DNA of 63,709 nt, counting the filler, from Candidatus Nezhaarchaeota archaeon WYZ-LMO8 (GTDB taxonomy: Archaea > Thermoproteota > Methanomethylicia > Nezhaarchaeales > WYZ-LMO8): the NCBI GenBank assembly GCA_004347965.1. It is 4 parts of 3 records of this genome, joined end to end, with 100 filler letters (N's around TTAATTAATTAA, not from the genome) between each part and the next. Parts side by side here need not be neighbours in the genome. Positions count along the whole stretch, not along the records: positions 35,478 to 63,709 come from QNVF01000018.1; 3 more parts are not named here. One strand, written 5' to 3'. This document shows positions 54,001 to 60,000 of the stretch, one piece after another. The first letter of the stretch is position 1. Every line of letters starts with the position of its first letter. The position numbers are program-made.

Positions 54001-57000
54001 GTTGCTACCACGTAATGTTCAGAAGCTTCTATATGAGCTTGAAGAGATGACATCAAGTTATTCAAACTACTACCTTAATGTAGCGATTGCCTACGGTGGG
54101 AGGGCAGAAATAATAGATGCTATAAGACAGATATCAAGCTTAGTTGTTAAGGGCTCTCTTAAACCTGAGGACATAGACGAGGAGTTATTCGAGAAATTCC
54201 TATATACATCTCATTTACCAAACCCCCATCCAGACTTAATCGTAAGGACCTCAGGTGAGGAGAGGTTAAGCGGATTTCTTCTTTGGCAGTCGGCTTATAG
54301 CGAGCTTTGCTTCCTCGATGTATACTGGCCAGAGTTCAGGTACATAGATTTGCTCAGAGTTATTAGGACATATCAAAAGCGTCAAAGAAGATTTGGAGTT
54401 TAAACTTCACTATTTGCACATTTTACGCATAATATCTTCCTCCTAATGAGACCTCTAGATTCGCCTATGCAATCTCTACATACGTAATTGCCACATAAAG
54501 CGCAACGATTTGCGTGATCTCTACAAACAGCTCTTCCACATACTTCACATGTATATGAATGTGAGAGACAAACATCTCTTCCACATACGTTGCACGTCCT
54601 CCTCTCCTCATTTTCGCAGAATGTCTTGCTGCAAACTTCACATGTCCAACTATGCTGCTTACAAACTACTGTACCACATTCAGCACACGCAAGGAGGCAT
54701 GAAGAGCAGAGAGGCTCATTGCATATCGAGCATCTATTAGCATGCGCACTACATATCGTCTTAGAGCACGAAGAGCACTTTAACATGTGAGAGTCAAAGT
54801 GTACTTCACATAGTATTGTTCCACATGCAGAGCACCTCAGTGAGTGCTTTGAGCATATGGAGTTAAAACACATCTCACAAATTGCTGAGCTTGAGAGATA
54901 TTTTAGCTCTGTATTGCATATGGTACATGAGCCGTAGAAACCTTTGCCATTTAAAGCATTCCACCAAATTGTAACTTCCTTAGAATTGTCCTTACTAGCT
55001 ATTACTAACTTTGCTTTATACACTGGAATCCACATAAGCTGAAAATTAACGATGGAGAGCTCTTTAGGTTCAGGTTGGATTATCATGGACTTTACATCGA
55101 AGCTTTTGAGGGAGTTGATCTTCATCCTTAGCTCTCTGATCTTCTCTCTCCACTCTCTTTCCAGAGCTCTCTTCTTCTCATTCAGCTCTTTTATTTGAAC
55201 GTTTATCTTCAACATTTCGTCTCTAATGTTCTCAAGCTTATTCTTTCTAATGTCGAGCTGCTTCGAGAGCTTAAGTATTGGCTTTCCATGCTTCTTTGCC
55301 TCCTTGAGCTGCTCACTTAACTGCTCGTATTCACGACGTAAAACATTGTAACTCTCACCTAATTTTCGAAGTCTCTTATTGTATCTCTCTATCGCCTCGT
55401 CTATCTCGGTCATGGATTTAAGGTAGCTCTCTTCGAGGTTCCTCTCTTCACATCGTTCTATCTCAGCTACCTCGTTGAGACATTCTGATAAGAAGGCTTG
55501 CTTATCACTTGTTAACGAAAACTTGCCGAGTTTCTTACTGTAGTAAAGTGTCTTTACAAGTTTTGTGGCAGCGTAAGCTAGTAGTTCCTCTCTAATCTTC
55601 TTGACTATCTTGGCGTCTGCTATGTTAAAGCATGTTCTCTGATAGGAGCCGGGTTGTGGAGGTGATGGAAGAAGATCGAGAGATTCTAAGTCCTTCAATT
55701 CTATATCGTAAGCTTGAGAGCTATCCCAATTTATCTCCCTAACCTCTACGCCTATGGGTATTAATCTTTGAATAGCATCTGAGAGCTTCACATAGGGGTT
55801 TTGTCTCTCAACTTTTGCCTCAACTTCGCAGTAAAGGGCAGGCATGTAGTTTAGCTCTAATGACGTTACGTCGAAACTCAGATTAGAGTATGTGTTCTCG
55901 ATCTTCTCCAATATCTCCGATTCATTAACAACTATCGGCAGGAAGACTTGAGGAAGACCTACCACTGAAATAGGTTGTTTCTGAAGTTTGTCTAAGTCGC
56001 ATGTAGCTGCCTTTGAAAGCTTTTCAAGCAACCTTGCAACTGAAGCATCACTAGGTTTAACTGCGTAATCCAATGGATTAAAGCCTTCACCCCCATGCTT
56101 AGTTTCTCGAGGTCTGATCCTAACTACTATCGGTATCTTCTCAACAGATTCACCGGTTATAACAGCTTCACCACTTTCAAGCCAGGCTATGACGTTCTCC
56201 CACTCATTCTCAAGCCCTCCACTTTCAAGCGTTATCCTCATGTCATTAGGATCAGATAGCCTATGGATAACCCATGTGCCAACAAGCCCCCTAACGGTTG
56301 TATCAAGTAGTTGAGGTCTTTGAGTTATGACTATCAAGCCTGCACCAAACTTTCTGCCTTCCTGGGCAAACCTTCTAATGATGTCAGTAGCCTTGGTCCT
56401 TTCTCTACCAGCGAATCTATGGGCCTCATCGAGGACACAGTAGAAGGGCCTTAATCTACCTTCTACCACTGCTTGAAATACCTTCTCAAGGATTGAAGAG
56501 ACTAGAGATATCTGTTCCTCCCTTAATAGTCCTCGAAGATTAATTATTGTACATTGACCTGGAACTATTAAGTCCTCAGGTTTAGCCACTTCCAATGCAT
56601 TAAGCGGAAGATCTATGCCGGGACTAACTTTAGGGTCTCCAAACTCCACGACGTTTTCAGCGTAAGATTTAGGGTATACACCAAACTCTTCGGAGGTTAC
56701 ATCTCCCATTACCTTTAAACTTGAGTATTCGCCATGGATGTCTATTATCAGCAGCGGTATTCCCTTCTTCAATAGCTCCTCGATGAAGACGCCGGCTGTA
56801 TATGACTTCCCTGAACCTGGCTTTCCAACTATGAATATCCTTCCAAGCTTCTTTATTGGAAGCCATATCTTGCAATCCAGTGCCTTCAGTTTGCCTATGT
56901 ATATTCCAGTCGAGGGATCATCGCTAAGCTTTAATGCTCTCCTAATGTGCTCTTCCTTAGCTAAGTAGACAGAGCTTCCAGGTATGAAGGGGAGCTTGGG

Positions 57001-60000
57001 CCCTTGACCTATGACAAAGCATTCAGCATAAACGCCGTCATCGGTTCGATAAAGCTCCTTGATTCCACAAACGTAGTATGTGCCCTCGTGAGCTATTTCG
57101 AGGAAAGAGTTCTTCCCAACTTCATCAGATAAGATCTTAATCCTGAAGCTACTAGTAGTGGTCTTACCTTCAATAATGCCTACTGGTTTAGCGTAGGAGA
57201 TGTTTGATTCGCTCTTCTCCAATTTGTCCCCCAACTCTATGAAGTTTTAGGCAACTATTGTAGTTAATTACAAACAAAATGTAAGCTAAATGTTTTTAAG
57301 TCATTTGGCTTTCATGAAGCTCCAACCTTTAATTTGAATTTTATTTCGCACATTTAAAGGAGAGCTTCCAAAGCTCGAAGATTAAAGCTTTTAACGTTTA
57401 TAAGACCTTCGTGAAGGCTTAAGTGCTGAGTGCTTTATTCATGGAAAATGTTATATCATCCTCCGCCCCTCTAGCGTATGATGGACGAGCATGTGATGGA
57501 AGCTTTGGGGAGGACCAGAATAGTGGTACGCAACGGTAAAGTTGTAGATGTTGGAAAGCCACTGATAAAGTCTTGTCCGTTAGCAAGCAGGTTTGAGGAA
57601 CCGGTAAAGATATTTTCGAAGGAGGAGATTAAGAGGAACATAGAGTTCAGGATAAGAAAGTTTGGTATGTTCACTAAGAATAGGATCGTTACATCAGACG
57701 AAGACTTCGTTCCCTTTGGATCTTCTGAGCTAATAAGCTTTGGATTAAAGAAGCACATGATCGGCGGTGCCGTCATAGTCGCTGATTGTGCTGGAACTGT
57801 TGTAACAAGAAATCCGTTATTAGTCCAGGGCCTTGGGGGTAGACTATCTGGTCTTGTGAAAACAAGCCCAATACCAGAGGTTATTAAGAGAATAGAGTTG
57901 GAAGGAGGCATCGTCCTTGATAAAGAAGGAGCCAGAATAGATCAGTTAGCTGGAGTTGAGCTCGCCTACAAGCTTGGGATGTCAAATGTTGCTGTAACAA
58001 TAGTTAGTGCTAAAGACGCTGAGATCATAAGGGCTAGGTACGAGGATTCATGGATATTTGCCACGCACTTAACCGGGACGTCAAAGGAGGAGACAGAGAT
58101 CTTAGCAAGCACCTGTGACGTGATAACTTCGTGTGCATCAAGATGGGTGAGGGAGATCGCTGGAAGGAAGGCTTTACTACAAGCTGGCACTACAATACCC
58201 GTCTTTGCGATGACTCAAAGAGCGAAGGATCTAGTGTTGGAGAGACTTAAGAGCCTAGAACGTCAGATACTCGTGAAATTAGAGAAATTACCTTTTACTC
58301 CGACTGAAAGCCCCTTCCCCCTCATTTAATCGTTCGATCTAGCTTTGAGACCAGTACATCCTCGTCCTGATGTAGTTCTTCTCGGCTTCTAGTATATCTT
58401 TAAAAAGTGTACCCTCACCTCTAGCGTCTTTAGCAAGTATTCTTGATGCTGTTTGAGGACCTACACCCCTTGCAGCTAGAACCATAACTGCCTTCTTCCC
58501 ATAGGTTAAAACCAGACTTGCTGACATTTGATATCTTTTAATCTCATCCACCTCTTGCTTGGTGAGCTTGCCTGACAGCTTCTTCCTAATTAACTTCTCA
58601 ATCTTATCGTCACTAGGCCATGTAACCGCTATGTACCTTGCCCCACACTTAGGGCACTTAATGTCTTCTGGCAGGTACTTGACTTTCCTAGAAGTTGTCC
58701 AGTTACCACAATACATACATACAAGCTTTACAGTTCTCTCCATAAGTCTCTCGAGGACTAGTTCGTCTAGGGTCTTGTCGCTACTGAGCCTTAATGGGAT
58801 CGCTTCGAGAGGGACGTATTTATTGAGTATCGGCGTGGCCAAAGGTGATGCCCTGTTCCCTCCTTCGAACCAAACTACTTCTATAATGTTTTTTCTGATC
58901 AGTTCTAGGATTTGTTTAAGGCCATCAACGTCAAACTTGTCTATCAGGACCTCCATTCTAGCAGCCCTATCAACAATTGTTCCTAGCAGGAACTTGTAAG
59001 CTTTAGAGAAAGCTTTTACGTTAGCATCCTTCTCTACGACTCCCATTCGCTTCGCAGCATGGAATAGTCTCCACAAGTAGACGTCGGATGACGGCATGAG
59101 GTTGTTCGTTAAAGAGTCCACGTCCTCTGGTGATAATTCACTAAGTAATTTAGCTACAAAGCTAGCTCTGATGTTTCGAGACGATATAAGTAGGACTCTG
59201 TACTGGTCTGCTCTATAGTGGATCATCGAGGAAATCGAGCTACTCAACATTGACGATAGTATGAGGCCAAGGAGCTCATTAACCTTGGATCCAAAACAGG
59301 CGTGAACCACGACGTAGTTGCCAAGTCCTTCAACCACGATCCTCTTATCGTGGGGGAACGGTAGACCTAGCTTTAAGTACTCCACCACGTCGCTCAAAGC
59401 CACTTTAATGGCTCTATCTGTTAATGGATAGCCTTCTAAAGCCTTCTTTAGGTCGAGCTTCTCTTTGTATAGCTCCTCGATACTTCTTCTGATGGAAGCG
59501 ACTTCTAACGCTACGTCCATGGGTACTGGTATGAGCTCCCCAATCCATGTTGGTATGGCCCCCTCAATGTCATCCGACGGTTCCACGTAGACCTTAGACT
59601 CCTCAACTCCTATGATCTTCCAAACCCTTCCTCCTAGTATTATGCTTAAAGTCTCCCTAACCTTTGTGACGACAAACTCCTCATCTAAAACCCCAACTTT
59701 CCGCTTGTCTGGTAGAGAGACTACATCGTACTTCTTCACGTCGGGTATCATTGACAAGTTATGGAGGTAAAACTCCATCGTCGCCCTACCGGCTCGCTTG
59801 AGCTTCGAGCCCACAAGCCTGATGACTCCTCTATCGTGGAGGAACTTCACGGTTTCAAGAAAGTCTTCGAGCGTTAAATTCCTGTAAGGATAAGCCCCCC
59901 TGATTATGCTTAGGGCTTCATTTACTTCTATAGCACCCTCATCCATCACGAGTCCTACTACCTGGTGTGCTAGAACGTCGAGAGCACGTTCATGAATCTT

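What a model noticed while it worked through the whole genome (the two positions that open the first line are those of the whole stretch)
54400..57222. HerA-type ATPase with a coiled-coil and a tail of about forty zinc-ribbon cysteines
g00413 (940 aa) has an intact HerA/FtsK-type ATPase core in its first 380 residues, then a long predicted coiled-coil stretch and a C-terminal 180 residues packed with repeated CxxC pairs. I read it as a lineage-specific DNA (or protein) translocase whose poly-zinc-ribbon tail is the substrate- or partner-binding arm, possibly a one-gene relative of the HerA-plus-effector defence systems. New would be this architecture; nothing like the tail is attached to known HerA proteins.
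Evidence so far: pfam.tsv: DUF87 107-212 only; PADLOC: HerA PDLC04105 5e-30 and mad8 2e-28 over res 118-378, nothing credible beyond 400. Region search with res 400-940: 14 full-length relatives (940-1004 aa, 47-100% identical), all named sources Nezhaarchaeales; 3 weak partial hits. Alignment of 14: invariant G137-K-P-G-S-G-K-S144 Walker A and about 40 invariant Cys plus several His between columns 770 and 939, arranged as CxxC pairs.
(Added by a program. Inside this text positions count along the whole contig: they may not be those of the stretch shown here. "Call 12" and the like, gene names such as g00115 and contig names such as C1 are that model's own, and its searches are not shown. The text may have been shortened before it was handed on; [...] marks where a part breaks off. 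The agent that wrote the report below was given it as the finding of a first reader that could run no searches.)

Follow-up and report, generated by a model that had tools for sequence, protein, structure and literature searches.

The report
Archaeal HerA-like motor with zinc-finger array
This is a real, widely inherited archaeal gene for a ring-type ATP motor related to the DNA-repair helicase HerA that carries a long coiled-coil arm and a chain of about ten zinc-binding fingers of a so far undescribed kind, whose cellular job is still unknown.

Summary
The ORF (window 54400-57234, minus strand, 940/944 aa) is real and intact. It has a HerA/FtsK-type ATPase (residues 1-385). Then come an unassigned 185-aa domain, a roughly 135-aa antiparallel coiled-coil hairpin and a small beta domain. 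The last 175 aa hold 33 Cys and 7 His in 20 CxxC/CxxH knuckles (about 10 Zn sites).

Two of its conclusions do not:
- **Range.** The family is not confined to one order. The same full architecture occurs in Bathyarchaeia, Methanomethylicia and Culexarchaeia. Asgard archaea carry a sister ATPase with a coiled coil but no zinc tail.
- **Uniqueness of the tail.** The zinc array (unit C-x2-C-x4-C-x2-H/C-x3) recurs in at least 293 protein clusters, behind other heads: Mrr, UvrD, SNF2, E2, VWA and other HerA-like ATPases.

The tail folds with high confidence (pLDDT 92.7). It resembles solved structures only locally, as FYVE/PHD/LIM-type fingers rather than zinc ribbons.

The genome also has a canonical Mre11-Rad50-NurA-HerA operon, so this gene is a paralogue. 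Its neighbours are housekeeping genes, local gene order is stable, and the gene tree follows lineages. I found no adjacent effector and no viral copies.

Best reading: a vertically inherited ring translocase whose arms and zinc arrays recruit or recognise a partner. Genome maintenance is more likely than defence, but the role is not settled.

The parts
54400..57234 (-). Whole gene: 944 aa from TTG at 57234 (likely start) or 940 aa from TTG at 57222; stop codon at 54400-54402. Residue numbers in this report use the 940-aa form.
   Evidence: N-terminal match to relatives
56923..57222 (-). Residues 1-100: N-terminal beta-rich domain in the position of HerA's HAS barrel. That name is recalled from the family's literature, not given by a tool.
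   Evidence: Beta strands 26-87 in the model, at low confidence. Region conserved down to the Asgard relatives.
56068..56922 (-). Residues 101-385: RecA-like HerA/FtsK ATPase core, ending in the invariant R-x-R-E-T-x-H-G-x2-G-F-N-P-L motif.
   Evidence: Pfam DUF87 at 1.8e-15. PADLOC HerA at 4.7e-30. PDB profile hits: Sulfolobus HerA 4D2I at 1.6e-30 and T. kodakarensis HerA 9X1L at 5.2e-29.
56803..56826 (-). Walker A, G133-K-P-G-S-G-K-S140.
   Evidence: Invariant in 14 of 14 relatives. In the 12-row cross-class alignment G133, K134, G136, G138, K139 and S140 are invariant, and P135 and S137 are nearly so.
56419..56445 (-). Walker B, F260-Y-C-V-L-D-E-A-H268. D265 and E266 are invariant.
55507..56067 (-). 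Residues 386-572: linker and middle domain of unknown fold. It includes a predicted long beta hairpin (451-489) at low confidence.
   Evidence: No family hit. pLDDT about 25-65. The ESM Atlas gave only scores below 0.9.
55099..55506 (-). Residues 573-708: antiparallel coiled-coil hairpin (helices 574-645 and 650-706) with a conserved apex, K-x-G-K/R-x3-K-L-S-x-Q-L.
   Evidence: Model block pLDDT about 80-93. Periodicity of 3.5 residues. Apex conservation.
54928..55098 (-). Residues 709-765: small beta domain. W731, P733, A737, W754, N755, G759, G761 and G764 are invariant across classes. It leads straight into the first zinc knuckle.
54403..54927 (-). Residues 766-940: zinc array of 20 CxxC/CxxH knuckles (33 Cys, 7 His, about 10 predicted Zn sites). 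The repeat unit is C-x2-C-x4-C-x2-[HC]-x3, about 15 aa.
   Evidence: Tail model pLDDT 92.7, pTM 0.76. Local FYVE/PHD-like matches.
53615..54403 (+). Convergent neighbour: undecaprenyl-diphosphate synthase (UppS). Its 3' end overlaps the gene's 3' end by 4 bp. It is a housekeeping gene and not part of a system with this gene.
   Evidence: Pfam Prenyltransf at 2e-79. Syntenic in all five related loci compared.
58339..61182 (-). Lhr-type helicase (947 aa) upstream on the same strand. It lies directly next to the gene in three related genomes, whereas here a DUF2099 gene (57478-58329, +) lies between. The link is seen within this family only.

Best explanation
The gene encodes a second, specialised member of the HerA/FtsK superfamily of ring ATPases. 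It is distinct from the genome's own repair HerA.

**Shown**
- An intact N-terminal beta domain and RecA-like ATPase whose closest solved relatives are the archaeal repair HerAs.
- A C-terminal extension made of an unassigned middle domain, a coiled-coil hairpin about 10 nm long that folds back on itself, a conserved beta domain, and a tandem array of about ten zinc sites.
- The array's units are the C-x2-C-x4-C-x2-H/C core typical of cross-braced FYVE/PHD/RING-type fingers.
- Inheritance along lineages in several classes of Thermoproteota, with an ATPase plus coiled-coil sister family in Asgard archaea.

**Inferred**
- Like HerA, six copies form a ring that uses ATP to pull DNA (or another polymer) through its pore.
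- Because the hairpin returns the chain to its base, the six zinc arrays would sit around the ring while six coiled-coil arms project outwards.
- The zinc arrays would carry a net negative charge once zinc is bound, and their non-ligand residues evolve much faster than the motor. They therefore look like multivalent partner-recognition or recruitment surfaces that decide where the motor is loaded. They do not look like general DNA clamps.

**Most likely role (inference)**
A chromosomal, host-side DNA transaction such as repair, resolution or segregation. An anti-virus role is less likely.
For: **Gene and motifs.**

**Paralogue status.** The same genome has an Mre11-Rad50-NurA-HerA operon on another contig (L025 1800-7927). 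Its HerA scores 254.6 bits on NF040937, against 94.2 bits for this protein.

**Nearest solved relatives.** They are the repair HerAs 4D2I (1.6e-30) and 9X1L (5.2e-29). Anti-phage HerAs score 9.7e-18 or weaker.

**Distribution.**
- 48 of the 80 kept loci (177 relatives found) carry the long architecture in four named lineages.
- In a 401-genome sample of the phylum, 63 have it. Presence is near-fixed where it occurs: families f1 8/9, f4 28/32, f5 5/5, f17 8/8; genera g1 6/6, g9 9/9, g16 5/5.

**Tree.** A quick maximum-likelihood tree of 56 rows separates Asgard (10 rows) from Thermoproteota (46 rows, support 100). It gives one clade per lineage: Nezha 7 rows at 100, Culex-type 6 at 99, Methanomethylicales 21 at 100.

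**Context.** Neighbours are housekeeping genes and differ between classes, but are stable within each class.

**Conservation.** The ATPase domain is 80-90% identical between genera. Neighbouring UppS is 75-93% and Lhr 70-87%. The zinc tail is only 45-69%.

**Mobile elements.** Not found in 50,697 phage records. Only one distant ATPase-only hit in IMG/VR.

**Structure.** The hairpin and tail were predicted with confidence. There is no transmembrane segment, and the tail's net charge is only +4 before zinc binding.
Against: - No function-bearing neighbour is conserved across classes, so the role rests on inference.
- The gene is dispensable in close kin. It was not found in 5 of 5 genomes (92-98% complete) of the two other families of the order, with the residue 401-940 query. 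The ATPase query found only the canonical-HerA-like 500-556-aa gene there.
- It was also not found in most families of the phylum.
- The Asgard sister gene matched in only 65 of 201 sampled genomes.
- The same zinc array is joined elsewhere to heads typical of defence: Mrr nuclease, GajB-like UvrD, DrmD-like SNF2. It also sits in a plasmid island with a restriction endonuclease.
- A conserved motor with a fast-evolving tail is also what an immune sensor looks like.
- The full-length model is poor for the ATPase and middle domain (mean pLDDT 58.5).
- The ring form, the substrate and zinc binding are all untested.
Confidence: 0.45

Rival explanations
1. It is an innate anti-invader 'capture' motor. 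The zinc array and arms would sense a viral or plasmid protein or DNA structure, and the HerA ring would then seize and translocate the foreign DNA. The system would have become fixed in some archaeal lineages and would work without a fused effector, or with an unlinked one.
For: - HerA-type ATPases are used in several defence systems, and PADLOC HerA and mad8 profiles hit the core.
- The zinc array recurs on Mrr nucleases (P0055, P0087, P0094), a GajB-like UvrD with a DUF559 nuclease (P0131) and DrmD-like SNF2 helicases (P0142, P0149, P0153).
- On three haloarchaeal plasmids a tail-bearing protein lies beside an SNF2 gene and a restriction endonuclease, and on the Halorhabdus one also a PbeA-like helicase.
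- The tail evolves two to three times faster than the motor and changed unit number within a genus.
- The gene was not found in sister families.
- Passages of PMC12839542 that I read describe HerA/FtsK-anchored capture systems with fast-evolving sensor domains.
Against: - There is no nuclease, Sir2 or other effector in the protein or next to it in any of the lineages examined.
- The gene is usually single copy and near-fixed within genera and families, at a stable housekeeping position.
- The tree follows lineages.
- The motor is more conserved than its housekeeping neighbours.
- It scores 58.9 bits against a cut-off of 800 on NCBIfam HerA_antiphage.
- Its nearest solved relatives are repair HerAs.
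- It was not found in phage records or viral contigs.
Confidence: 0.3
2. It acts on proteins rather than DNA. The ring would be a protein or nucleoprotein remodeller, and the FYVE/PHD/RING-like array would serve as an adaptor for a modification or trafficking pathway, for example a ubiquitin-like or ESCRT-linked one, in archaea of the TACK and Asgard groups.
For: - The best local fold matches of the tail are eukaryote-type protein- or lipid-binding fingers. The top match is the EEA1 FYVE domain, Z 5.4, rmsd 2.9 Å, 60 of 65 residues aligned. PHD, LIM and RING fingers follow at Z 3-4.5.
- One tail-bearing protein has an E2 ubiquitin-conjugating head (P0056).
- One Helarchaeota locus has two Snf7 genes directly downstream of the sister ATPase.
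- The predicted charge of the zinc-loaded tail argues against plain DNA binding (inference).
Against: - By the tool's own note, Z below 8 can be a common arrangement.
- The Snf7 link is 1 locus of 32 Asgard-type loci.
- The E2 head is 1 of 35 proteins scanned.
- Every characterised close relative of the motor moves DNA.
Confidence: 0.12
3. The ORF is an assembly or annotation artefact, for example a chimera of an ATPase gene and a cysteine-rich gene, or a decaying pseudogene.
For: The window is a concatenation of contigs of a metagenome-assembled genome joined by N runs.
Against: - The gene lies inside one contig (C10).
- Contigs of other runs carry the same sequence, one of them across the domain junctions.
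- The same architecture is kept in 48 loci of several classes without stops.
- Catalytic motifs and ligands are invariant.
- RNA-library contigs at 90-99% identity lie on 54371-57228, within or just beyond the gene's limits, and none on the outer flanks laid. The tool warns this does not prove transcription.
Confidence: 0.01

Closest known systems
Archaeal DNA-repair helicase HerA (Mre11-Rad50-NurA-HerA operon; PDB 4D2I, 9X1L)
   Same: The N-terminal beta domain and RecA-like core, Walker A/B and the QRP motif are shared. These are the best sequence matches among solved structures, at 1.6e-30 and 5.2e-29.
   Different: It scores far below the equivalog cut-offs: 94.2 bits against 800. It is not next to NurA, Mre11 or Rad50, and the genome has that operon elsewhere. 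It carries a 555-aa extension that no solved HerA matched in the profile search.
HerA of anti-phage systems (Sir2-HerA, DUF4297-HerA, MADS mad8, DndH/TdpA)
   Same: The same ATPase superfamily. PADLOC HerA and mad8 profiles hit residues 118-378.
   Different: There is no partner effector gene. PDB matches are weaker, 9.7e-18 down to 1e-4. The context is conserved housekeeping genes and inheritance follows lineages.
FYVE, PHD, LIM and RING cross-braced binuclear zinc fingers of eukaryotes
   Same: The unit C-x2-C-x4-C-x2-C/H is the core of these fingers. That the FYVE core reads CRxCGxxFCxxC is recalled, not tested. Tail-model residues 34-110 (protein 739-815) superpose on whole FYVE domains at Z 5.0-5.4, and later units on PHD fingers at Z 3-3.7.
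   Different: There is no significant sequence match: Pfam shows none at E up to 10 except zf-C2HC5 at 0.31 and zf-AN1 at 0.45, and Vps27 FYVE scores 0.029. The basic lipid-binding motif of FYVE (recalled) is not in the sequence. Here the units form one continuous array of 20 knuckles, which matched no solved chain as a whole.
Rad50/SMC-type ATPases with antiparallel coiled-coil arms
   Same: A motor head with a long antiparallel coiled-coil hairpin and a conserved apex. There are weak profile hits to SMC/Rad50 coiled-coil parts.
   Different: The head is a RecA/FtsK-HerA fold, not an ABC ATPase. The coiled coil follows the head rather than splitting it. There is no CxxC hook at the apex.
Asgard ATPase plus coiled-coil proteins (462-597 aa ORFs), the sister family found here
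   Same: The ATPase region is 42-53% identical, including the R-E-T-x-H-G-x2-G-F-N-P-L end motif. It is followed by a charged helical C-terminus.
   Different: These proteins have no middle domain, beta domain or zinc array. The seven I read have 2-4 Cys in all. They are unannotated and I found no paper on them.

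Membership tests
HerA/FtsK superfamily (Pfam DUF87, PF01935) | Match to the central HerA domain above Pfam's gathering score | tested here: met
   58.1 bits against a cut-off of 23.2, E 1.8e-15, residues 107-212
HerA/FtsK superfamily | Intact Walker A, Walker B and QRP motifs | tested here: met
   GKPGSGKS, LDEAH and TQRPQ are invariant in 14 of 14 relatives, and their key residues in 12 of 12 across classes. They align to the same motifs of 4D2I.
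HerA/FtsK superfamily | Hexameric ring with a central pore | not testable with these tools
   The full-length model is poor for this part. No ring was modelled.
Repair HerA proper (NCBIfam NF040937 / NF040819 equivalogs) | Whole-protein score at or above the curated cut-off | tested here: not met
   94.2 against 800 and 85.5 against 970
Repair HerA proper | Operon with NurA, Mre11 and Rad50 | tested here: not met
   Neighbours are UppS, a Trm112-like gene, DUF2099 and Lhr. The canonical operon lies on contig C23.
HerA-plus-effector anti-phage systems (Sir2-HerA, DUF4297-HerA) | Adjacent effector gene (Sir2, DUF4297 or a nuclease) | tested here: not met
   None in the window, in five related loci, or among 24 neighbour clusters from 80 loci scanned with Pfam
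HerA-plus-effector anti-phage systems | NCBIfam HerA_antiphage equivalog score | tested here: not met
   58.9 against 800 and 48.1 against 850
MADS (mad8 ATPase) | mad8-like ATPase together with the other MADS genes in one cluster | tested here: not met
   The mad8 profile hits residues 118-378 at 1.6e-28. Neighbours are housekeeping genes by Pfam. I did not scan the neighbours against PADLOC.
FYVE domain | Cross-braced fold with eight ligands, two zinc ions and a C-terminal helix | tested here: inconclusive
   Z 5.4, rmsd 2.9 Å, 60 of 65 residues of the EEA1 FYVE domain. FYVE entries fill most of the top 20 rows. Z is below the tool's noise guide of 8, and I could not read ligand pairing from the model.
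FYVE domain | Pfam FYVE profile match and the basic phosphoinositide-binding motif | tested here: not met
   No FYVE hit at E up to 10. The sequence before the second knuckle is SSSAICEMC, with no basic cluster. The motif itself is recalled.
   No zinc-ribbon Pfam family hits the tail. No ribbon appears among the listed fold matches, but a family that is not listed is not excluded.
SMC/Rad50 | ABC-type head split by the coiled coil, with a hinge or zinc hook at the apex | tested here: not met
   The head is DUF87/RecA-like. The coiled coil follows it. There is no CxxC at the apex.

The most novel reading that the evidence does not exclude
The tail would be the first described member of a large prokaryotic family of continuous, cross-braced FYVE/PHD-like zinc-finger arrays. 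This would be a portable 'reader' module that archaea and some bacteria attach to DNA motors and nucleases. The protein would then be a new class of ring translocase, loaded onto its target by six multivalent zinc-finger arms. Because the motor family is shared by Thermoproteota and Asgard archaea, the array could be evolutionary kin of the eukaryotic FYVE/PHD/RING fingers.
Probability: 0.15. Interest if true: 0.8.

Novelty: new variant of a known kind. Interest (0 to 1): 0.6.

Why it matters
HerA-type motors are known from archaeal double-strand-break repair and, more recently, from several anti-phage systems. This is a third, unstudied branch. It is inherited along whole archaeal lineages that include the methane-metabolising Methanomethylicia and the Bathyarchaeia, and it has a sister branch in Asgard archaea.

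It carries an accessory apparatus that no solved HerA matched. That apparatus is a coiled-coil arm plus a confidently predicted array of about 10-14 zinc sites.

The array defines a domain family with hundreds of members that no Pfam, NCBIfam or PADLOC model covered. It is joined to nucleases, helicases, an E2 enzyme and VWA domains. Learning what it binds would therefore annotate many proteins at once.

It would also show how ring translocases are aimed at their targets. The family is a concrete test case for whether FYVE/PHD-like fingers existed in archaea before eukaryotes.

Tried and rejected
- **ESM Atlas.** The tail gave no usable hit. The middle domain gave only unnamed clusters scoring 0.78-0.83, below the tool's guide of 0.9.
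- **The search for related loci.** I then used A3 and the single protein P0026. One search matched 99 patterns but confirmed no relative, so I have no neighbourhoods for the largest tail-bearing group.
- **Taxonomy of tail-bearing proteins.** The cluster look-up named only 2 of 10 proteins: an Asgardarchaeia HerA-like protein and a Pseudomonadota SNF2 protein.
- **Fold search, full model.** It recovers only HerA entries weakly, with 1 hit at E <= 0.001, because the ATPase part was poorly modelled.
- **Fold search, tail.** Foldseek gave 0 hits at E <= 0.001. VIA-align over 48,161 chains gave no whole-array match, with a best Z of 5.2.
- **Self-association.** Two copies of residues 573-940 scored 0.06 and 0.07 against a mark of 0.42. 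The tool's verdict was 'no answer', so this is no evidence either way.
- **Papers.** Eight searches found no paper on this architecture, the repeat or the Asgard sister family. The terms covered HerA with zinc ribbon and coiled coil, Nezhaarchaeota, the repeat spelled four ways, HerA-like in Asgard, DUF87 with zinc finger, FtsK-HerA in Asgard, and Methanosuratincola. From PMC9976892 and PMC12839542 I read only the passages returned by 'find'. Subscription journals are not covered.
- **Lhr helicase as a partner.** Rejected as unproven. The adjacency holds only within this one family.
- **Viral or plasmid origin.** Rejected.
- **RNA support.** One metatranscriptome has 7 contigs at 90-99% identity lying on 54371-57228. 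The tool warns this does not show transcription.

Full report
**1. The observation**

An open frame runs on the minus strand from 57234 (TTG) or 57222 (TTG) to the stop at 54400-54402, giving 944 or 940 aa. The longer form begins MGDKLEK. That matches the MGGELGK/MGGKLEK starts of relatives, so I take 57234 as the likely start.

The window is a concatenation of contigs joined by N runs. This gene lies well inside contig C10 of the assembly. The same DNA is held by contigs of several other hot-spring metagenome runs. One contig of run X10 covers 54000-56157 without a difference, so the tail, coiled coil, middle domain and ATPase are joined in another sample too.

An RNA-seq metatranscriptome (X15) has seven contigs of 90-99% identity lying on 54371-57228. 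None lies on the outer flanks laid (54000-54362 and 57267-57600). The tool warns that this does not prove transcription.

**2. Anatomy**

- **Residues 1-385, the ATPase.** Evidence:
  - Pfam DUF87 hits 107-212 at 1.8e-15.
  - PADLOC HerA hits at 4.7e-30 and mad8 at 1.6e-28.
  - NCBIfam repair-HerA models hit at 6.2e-27, but with 94 bits against a cut-off of 800.
  - Walker A (GKPGSGKS), Walker B (LDEAH) and TQRPQ are invariant.
  - A profile of the family finds Sulfolobus HerA (4D2I, 1.6e-30) and Thermococcus HerA (9X1L, 5.2e-29) as the best solved relatives. These are well ahead of the anti-phage HerAs, at 9.7e-18 and weaker.
- **Residues 386-572, the middle domain.** No family matches it and it was modelled poorly.
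- **Residues 573-708, the coiled coil.** Two long helices (574-645 and 650-706) were modelled at block pLDDT about 80-93. I read them as an antiparallel hairpin because a four-residue turn joins them. Hydrophobic periodicity is 3.5 residues. The apex loop is conserved even between classes.
- **Residues 709-765, the beta domain.** Several residues are invariant across classes, including W731, P733, W754-N755 and G759/G761/G764.
- **Residues 766-940, the zinc array.** It holds 33 Cys and 7 His, all in 20 CxxC or CxxH knuckles. Most lie in a 15-residue unit, C-x2-C-x4-C-x2-[HC]-x3. That implies about ten zinc sites.

There is no DNA-level tandem repeat, so the units are old. There is no transmembrane segment.

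**3. The tail as a structure**

Folded alone with a 32-row alignment, residues 706-940 give a very confident model: mean pLDDT 92.7, pTM 0.76.

- Foldseek finds nothing at E <= 0.001. The best rows are PZP, LIM, Pirh2 and RBR zinc modules at E 0.013-0.05.
- VIA-align against 48,161 representative chains finds no match to the array as a whole.
- Locally, model residues 34-110 superpose on entire FYVE domains. The best is EEA1 at Z 5.4, rmsd 2.9 Å, 60 of 65 residues. Later units superpose on PHD, LIM and RING fingers at Z 3-4.5.

These Z values lie below the tool's noise guide of 8. FYVE entries do fill most of the top twenty rows.

From memory, the FYVE core reads C-R-x-C-G-x-x-F-C-x-x-C, which is the same spacing as the unit here. 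In that fold neighbouring knuckles bind different zinc ions. I therefore describe the tail as a tandem array of FYVE/PHD-like cross-braced fingers, and I do not call it zinc ribbons. I could not read ligand pairing, because model coordinates are not open to scripts.

Counting thiolates, a zinc-loaded array would be net negative (inference). That speaks against plain DNA clamping.

**4. The tail is not unique**

A full HMMER scan with residues 706-940 against 1.84 billion representatives gave 293 proteins at E <= 0.001, 108 at <= 1e-10 and 12 at <= 1e-30.

Of the 151 proteins P0016-P0166, 62 align from before residue 740. They therefore also share the beta domain and often the last coiled-coil helix.

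Clustering their N-terminal parts gave two large groups:
- 65 proteins with an unassigned head of about 330 aa.
- 60 linked to this protein.

Pfam on 35 representatives showed:

| Head | Number of 35 |
|---|---|
| DUF87/HerA_C | 10 |
| Mrr nuclease | 3 |
| SNF2 | 3 |
| UvrD plus DUF559 | 1 |
| E2 (UQ_con) | 1 |
| VWA | 1 |
| no family | 16 |

By PADLOC the SNF2 heads are DrmD-like and the UvrD head is GajB-like, while the tail-bearing parts themselves match nothing.

On three haloarchaeal plasmids a tail-bearing protein (1095 aa in Halorhabdus) lies beside an SNF2 gene and a restriction endonuclease, and on the Halorhabdus plasmid also a PbeA-like helicase.

**5. The family is not confined to one order**

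- **Species-level scan.** A scan of one genome per prokaryotic species found 177 relatives, of which 80 loci were kept.
  - 48 match far beyond the ATPase, typically residues 14-937 at 36-41% identity. Their titles name Nezhaarchaeales, Bathyarchaeia (11 loci), Methanomethylicia including two complete Methanosuratincola genomes, and Culexarchaeia (4 loci).
  - 32 match only residues 4-409, at 42-53% identity. Their titles name Asgard phyla or 'uncultured archaeon'.
- **Asgard sister proteins.** The ORFs are 462-597 aa. The seven I read have the ATPase, a charged helical C-terminus and 2-4 Cys in all.
- **Phylum sample.** In 401 genomes the non-ATPase part (residues 401-940) matched in 63. Presence is near-fixed where it occurs: families f1 8/9, f4 28/32, f5 5/5, f17 8/8; genera g1 6/6, g9 9/9. 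It was not found in most other families, for example 0/16, 0/17, 0/23, 0/25 and 0/24.
- **Within the order.** The two other families have only the canonical-HerA-like gene, 0 of 5 genomes at 92-98% completeness.
- **Asgard sample.** The sister gene matched in 65 of 201 sampled genomes.
- **A second HerA-like subfamily.** A HerA_C-type group with a similar tail (P0054 type) also exists in Asgard archaea. Its ATPase part matched in 88 of 201 genomes.

**6. Inheritance and context**

I built a quick maximum-likelihood tree of the ATPase region with SH-aLRT support. The careful search did not finish. The tree has 56 rows. I left out three N-terminally truncated loci (L061, L062, L076) and 22 of the 32 Asgard-type loci as redundant.

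The tree separates Asgard (10 rows) from Thermoproteota (46 rows, support 100). Within Thermoproteota it gives one clade per lineage:
- Nezha type, 7 rows, support 100.
- Culex type, 6 rows, support 99.
- Methanomethylicales, 21 rows, support 100.
- Bathyarchaeia in two clades of 5 and 7 rows.

Gene order around the gene is stable within each lineage but differs between them:
- Lhr helicase and UppS/Trm112-like in the Nezha family.
- An HMGL-type synthase upstream in Methanomethylicia.
- A GCD14-type tRNA methyltransferase downstream in Bathyarchaeia.
- DUF1614/ASCH and a small unassigned gene in the Culex type.

Every neighbour cluster that Pfam named is an ordinary metabolic or housekeeping protein. 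None is a nuclease, Sir2 or other effector.

Between genera of the Nezha family, identities are as follows:

| Protein or domain | Identity |
|---|---|
| ATPase domain | 80-90% |
| UppS | 75-93% |
| Lhr | 70-87% |
| Polyprenyl synthase | 70-89% |
| Zinc tail | 45-69% |

The window's form and that of one genus-mate (ORFs of 948 and 951 codons) lack 63 aa, or four units, that the other members of the same genus keep (1002-1025 codons). The array therefore changes by whole units.

No phage record matches the tail. IMG/VR holds one distant ATPase-only hit.

The genome has its own Mre11-Rad50-NurA-HerA operon elsewhere.

**7. Reading**

What is shown is a vertically inherited HerA paralogue with a new accessory apparatus.

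What is inferred is that it forms a ring translocase. Its six coiled-coil arms project outwards, and its six zinc arrays sit around the ring as partner-recognition surfaces.

Two roles compete. The evidence leans towards a host-side role because of four observations:
- The gene is near-fixed within lineages.
- Its housekeeping context is stable.
- Its motor is more conserved than its neighbours.
- There is no effector and no viral copy.

Four observations keep an immune 'capture' role alive (compare the passages of PMC12839542 read):
- The module's company elsewhere (Mrr, GajB-like UvrD, DrmD-like SNF2, a plasmid island).
- The fast-evolving tail.
- The absence from sister families.
- The general use of HerA motors in defence.

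I put these at about 0.45 and 0.30. A protein-directed role gets about 0.12.

**8. Novelty**

The motor belongs to a known superfamily. The full architecture, the Asgard sister family and the zinc-array module are, as far as eight literature searches and four profile libraries show, undescribed. I rate it a new variant of a known kind.

It is of solid interest because the module is widespread and confidently structured. The lineages involved also matter for archaeal cell biology and eukaryote origins. The function remains a guess until the motor's substrate and the tail's partner are found.

Noticed in passing
window 2001-2100, 4848-4947, 35378-35477: N runs show that the window is a chain of separate contigs of a metagenome-assembled genome. 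Positions 4948-35377 are contig C6, and the finding lies in contig C10. Linkage across these gaps is not real.
   Followed up: yes
window 54403-54927 (alignment A1 columns 801-866): This protein and one genus-mate lack 63 aa, or four zinc units, that other members of the same genus keep (ORFs of 948 and 951 against 1002-1025 codons). This is a recent in-frame loss of whole units.
   Followed up: partly
L025 1800-7927 (own genome, contig C23): A canonical Mre11-Rad50-NurA-HerA operon. All four genes hit the matching NCBIfam models.
   Followed up: yes
L074 9631-10245 and the next gene: In one Helarchaeota locus, two Snf7 (ESCRT-III) genes lie directly downstream of the sister ATPase on the same strand. 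This is 1 of the 32 Asgard-type loci.
   Followed up: no
L107 4147-10183 (Halorhabdus tiamatea plasmid pHTIA) and L106 (Haloferax lucentense plasmid): An island with a PbeA-like helicase, a DrmD-like SNF2 gene, a 1095-aa protein carrying the same zinc array, and a restriction endonuclease. The tail-bearing protein matches no PADLOC model. This may be an undescribed defence cassette.
   Followed up: partly
G546, G570, G585, G540, G442, G531, G549, G582 (table): In eight Asgard genomes the sister ATPase matches in two pieces that break near residue 185, with up to about 340 bases between them. The cause could be insertions, inteins or frameshifts.
   Followed up: no
P0054, P0046, P0063, P0064, P0071 and loci L115-L126: A second HerA_C/DUF87-type ATPase subfamily of about 1000 aa carries a similar coiled coil and zinc array. 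One member is named Asgardarchaeia. Its ATPase part matched in 88 of 201 sampled Asgard genomes, in ORFs of about 650 or about 1000 aa.
   Followed up: partly
window 53615-54403 and 54400-57234: The UppS gene and the HerA-like gene converge and overlap by 4 bp at their stop codons. No room is left for a terminator between them.
   Followed up: no
window 37274-46515: By eye, the translations look like an arginine/lysine biosynthesis cluster: argininosuccinate synthase and lyase, RimK/LysX-like ligases, ArgC, ArgB, ArgD and ArgE-like genes. By eye again, an RtcB-like gene follows at 46516-47985 and succinyl-CoA synthetase subunits at 48647-50681. None of this was checked with a family search.
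   Followed up: no
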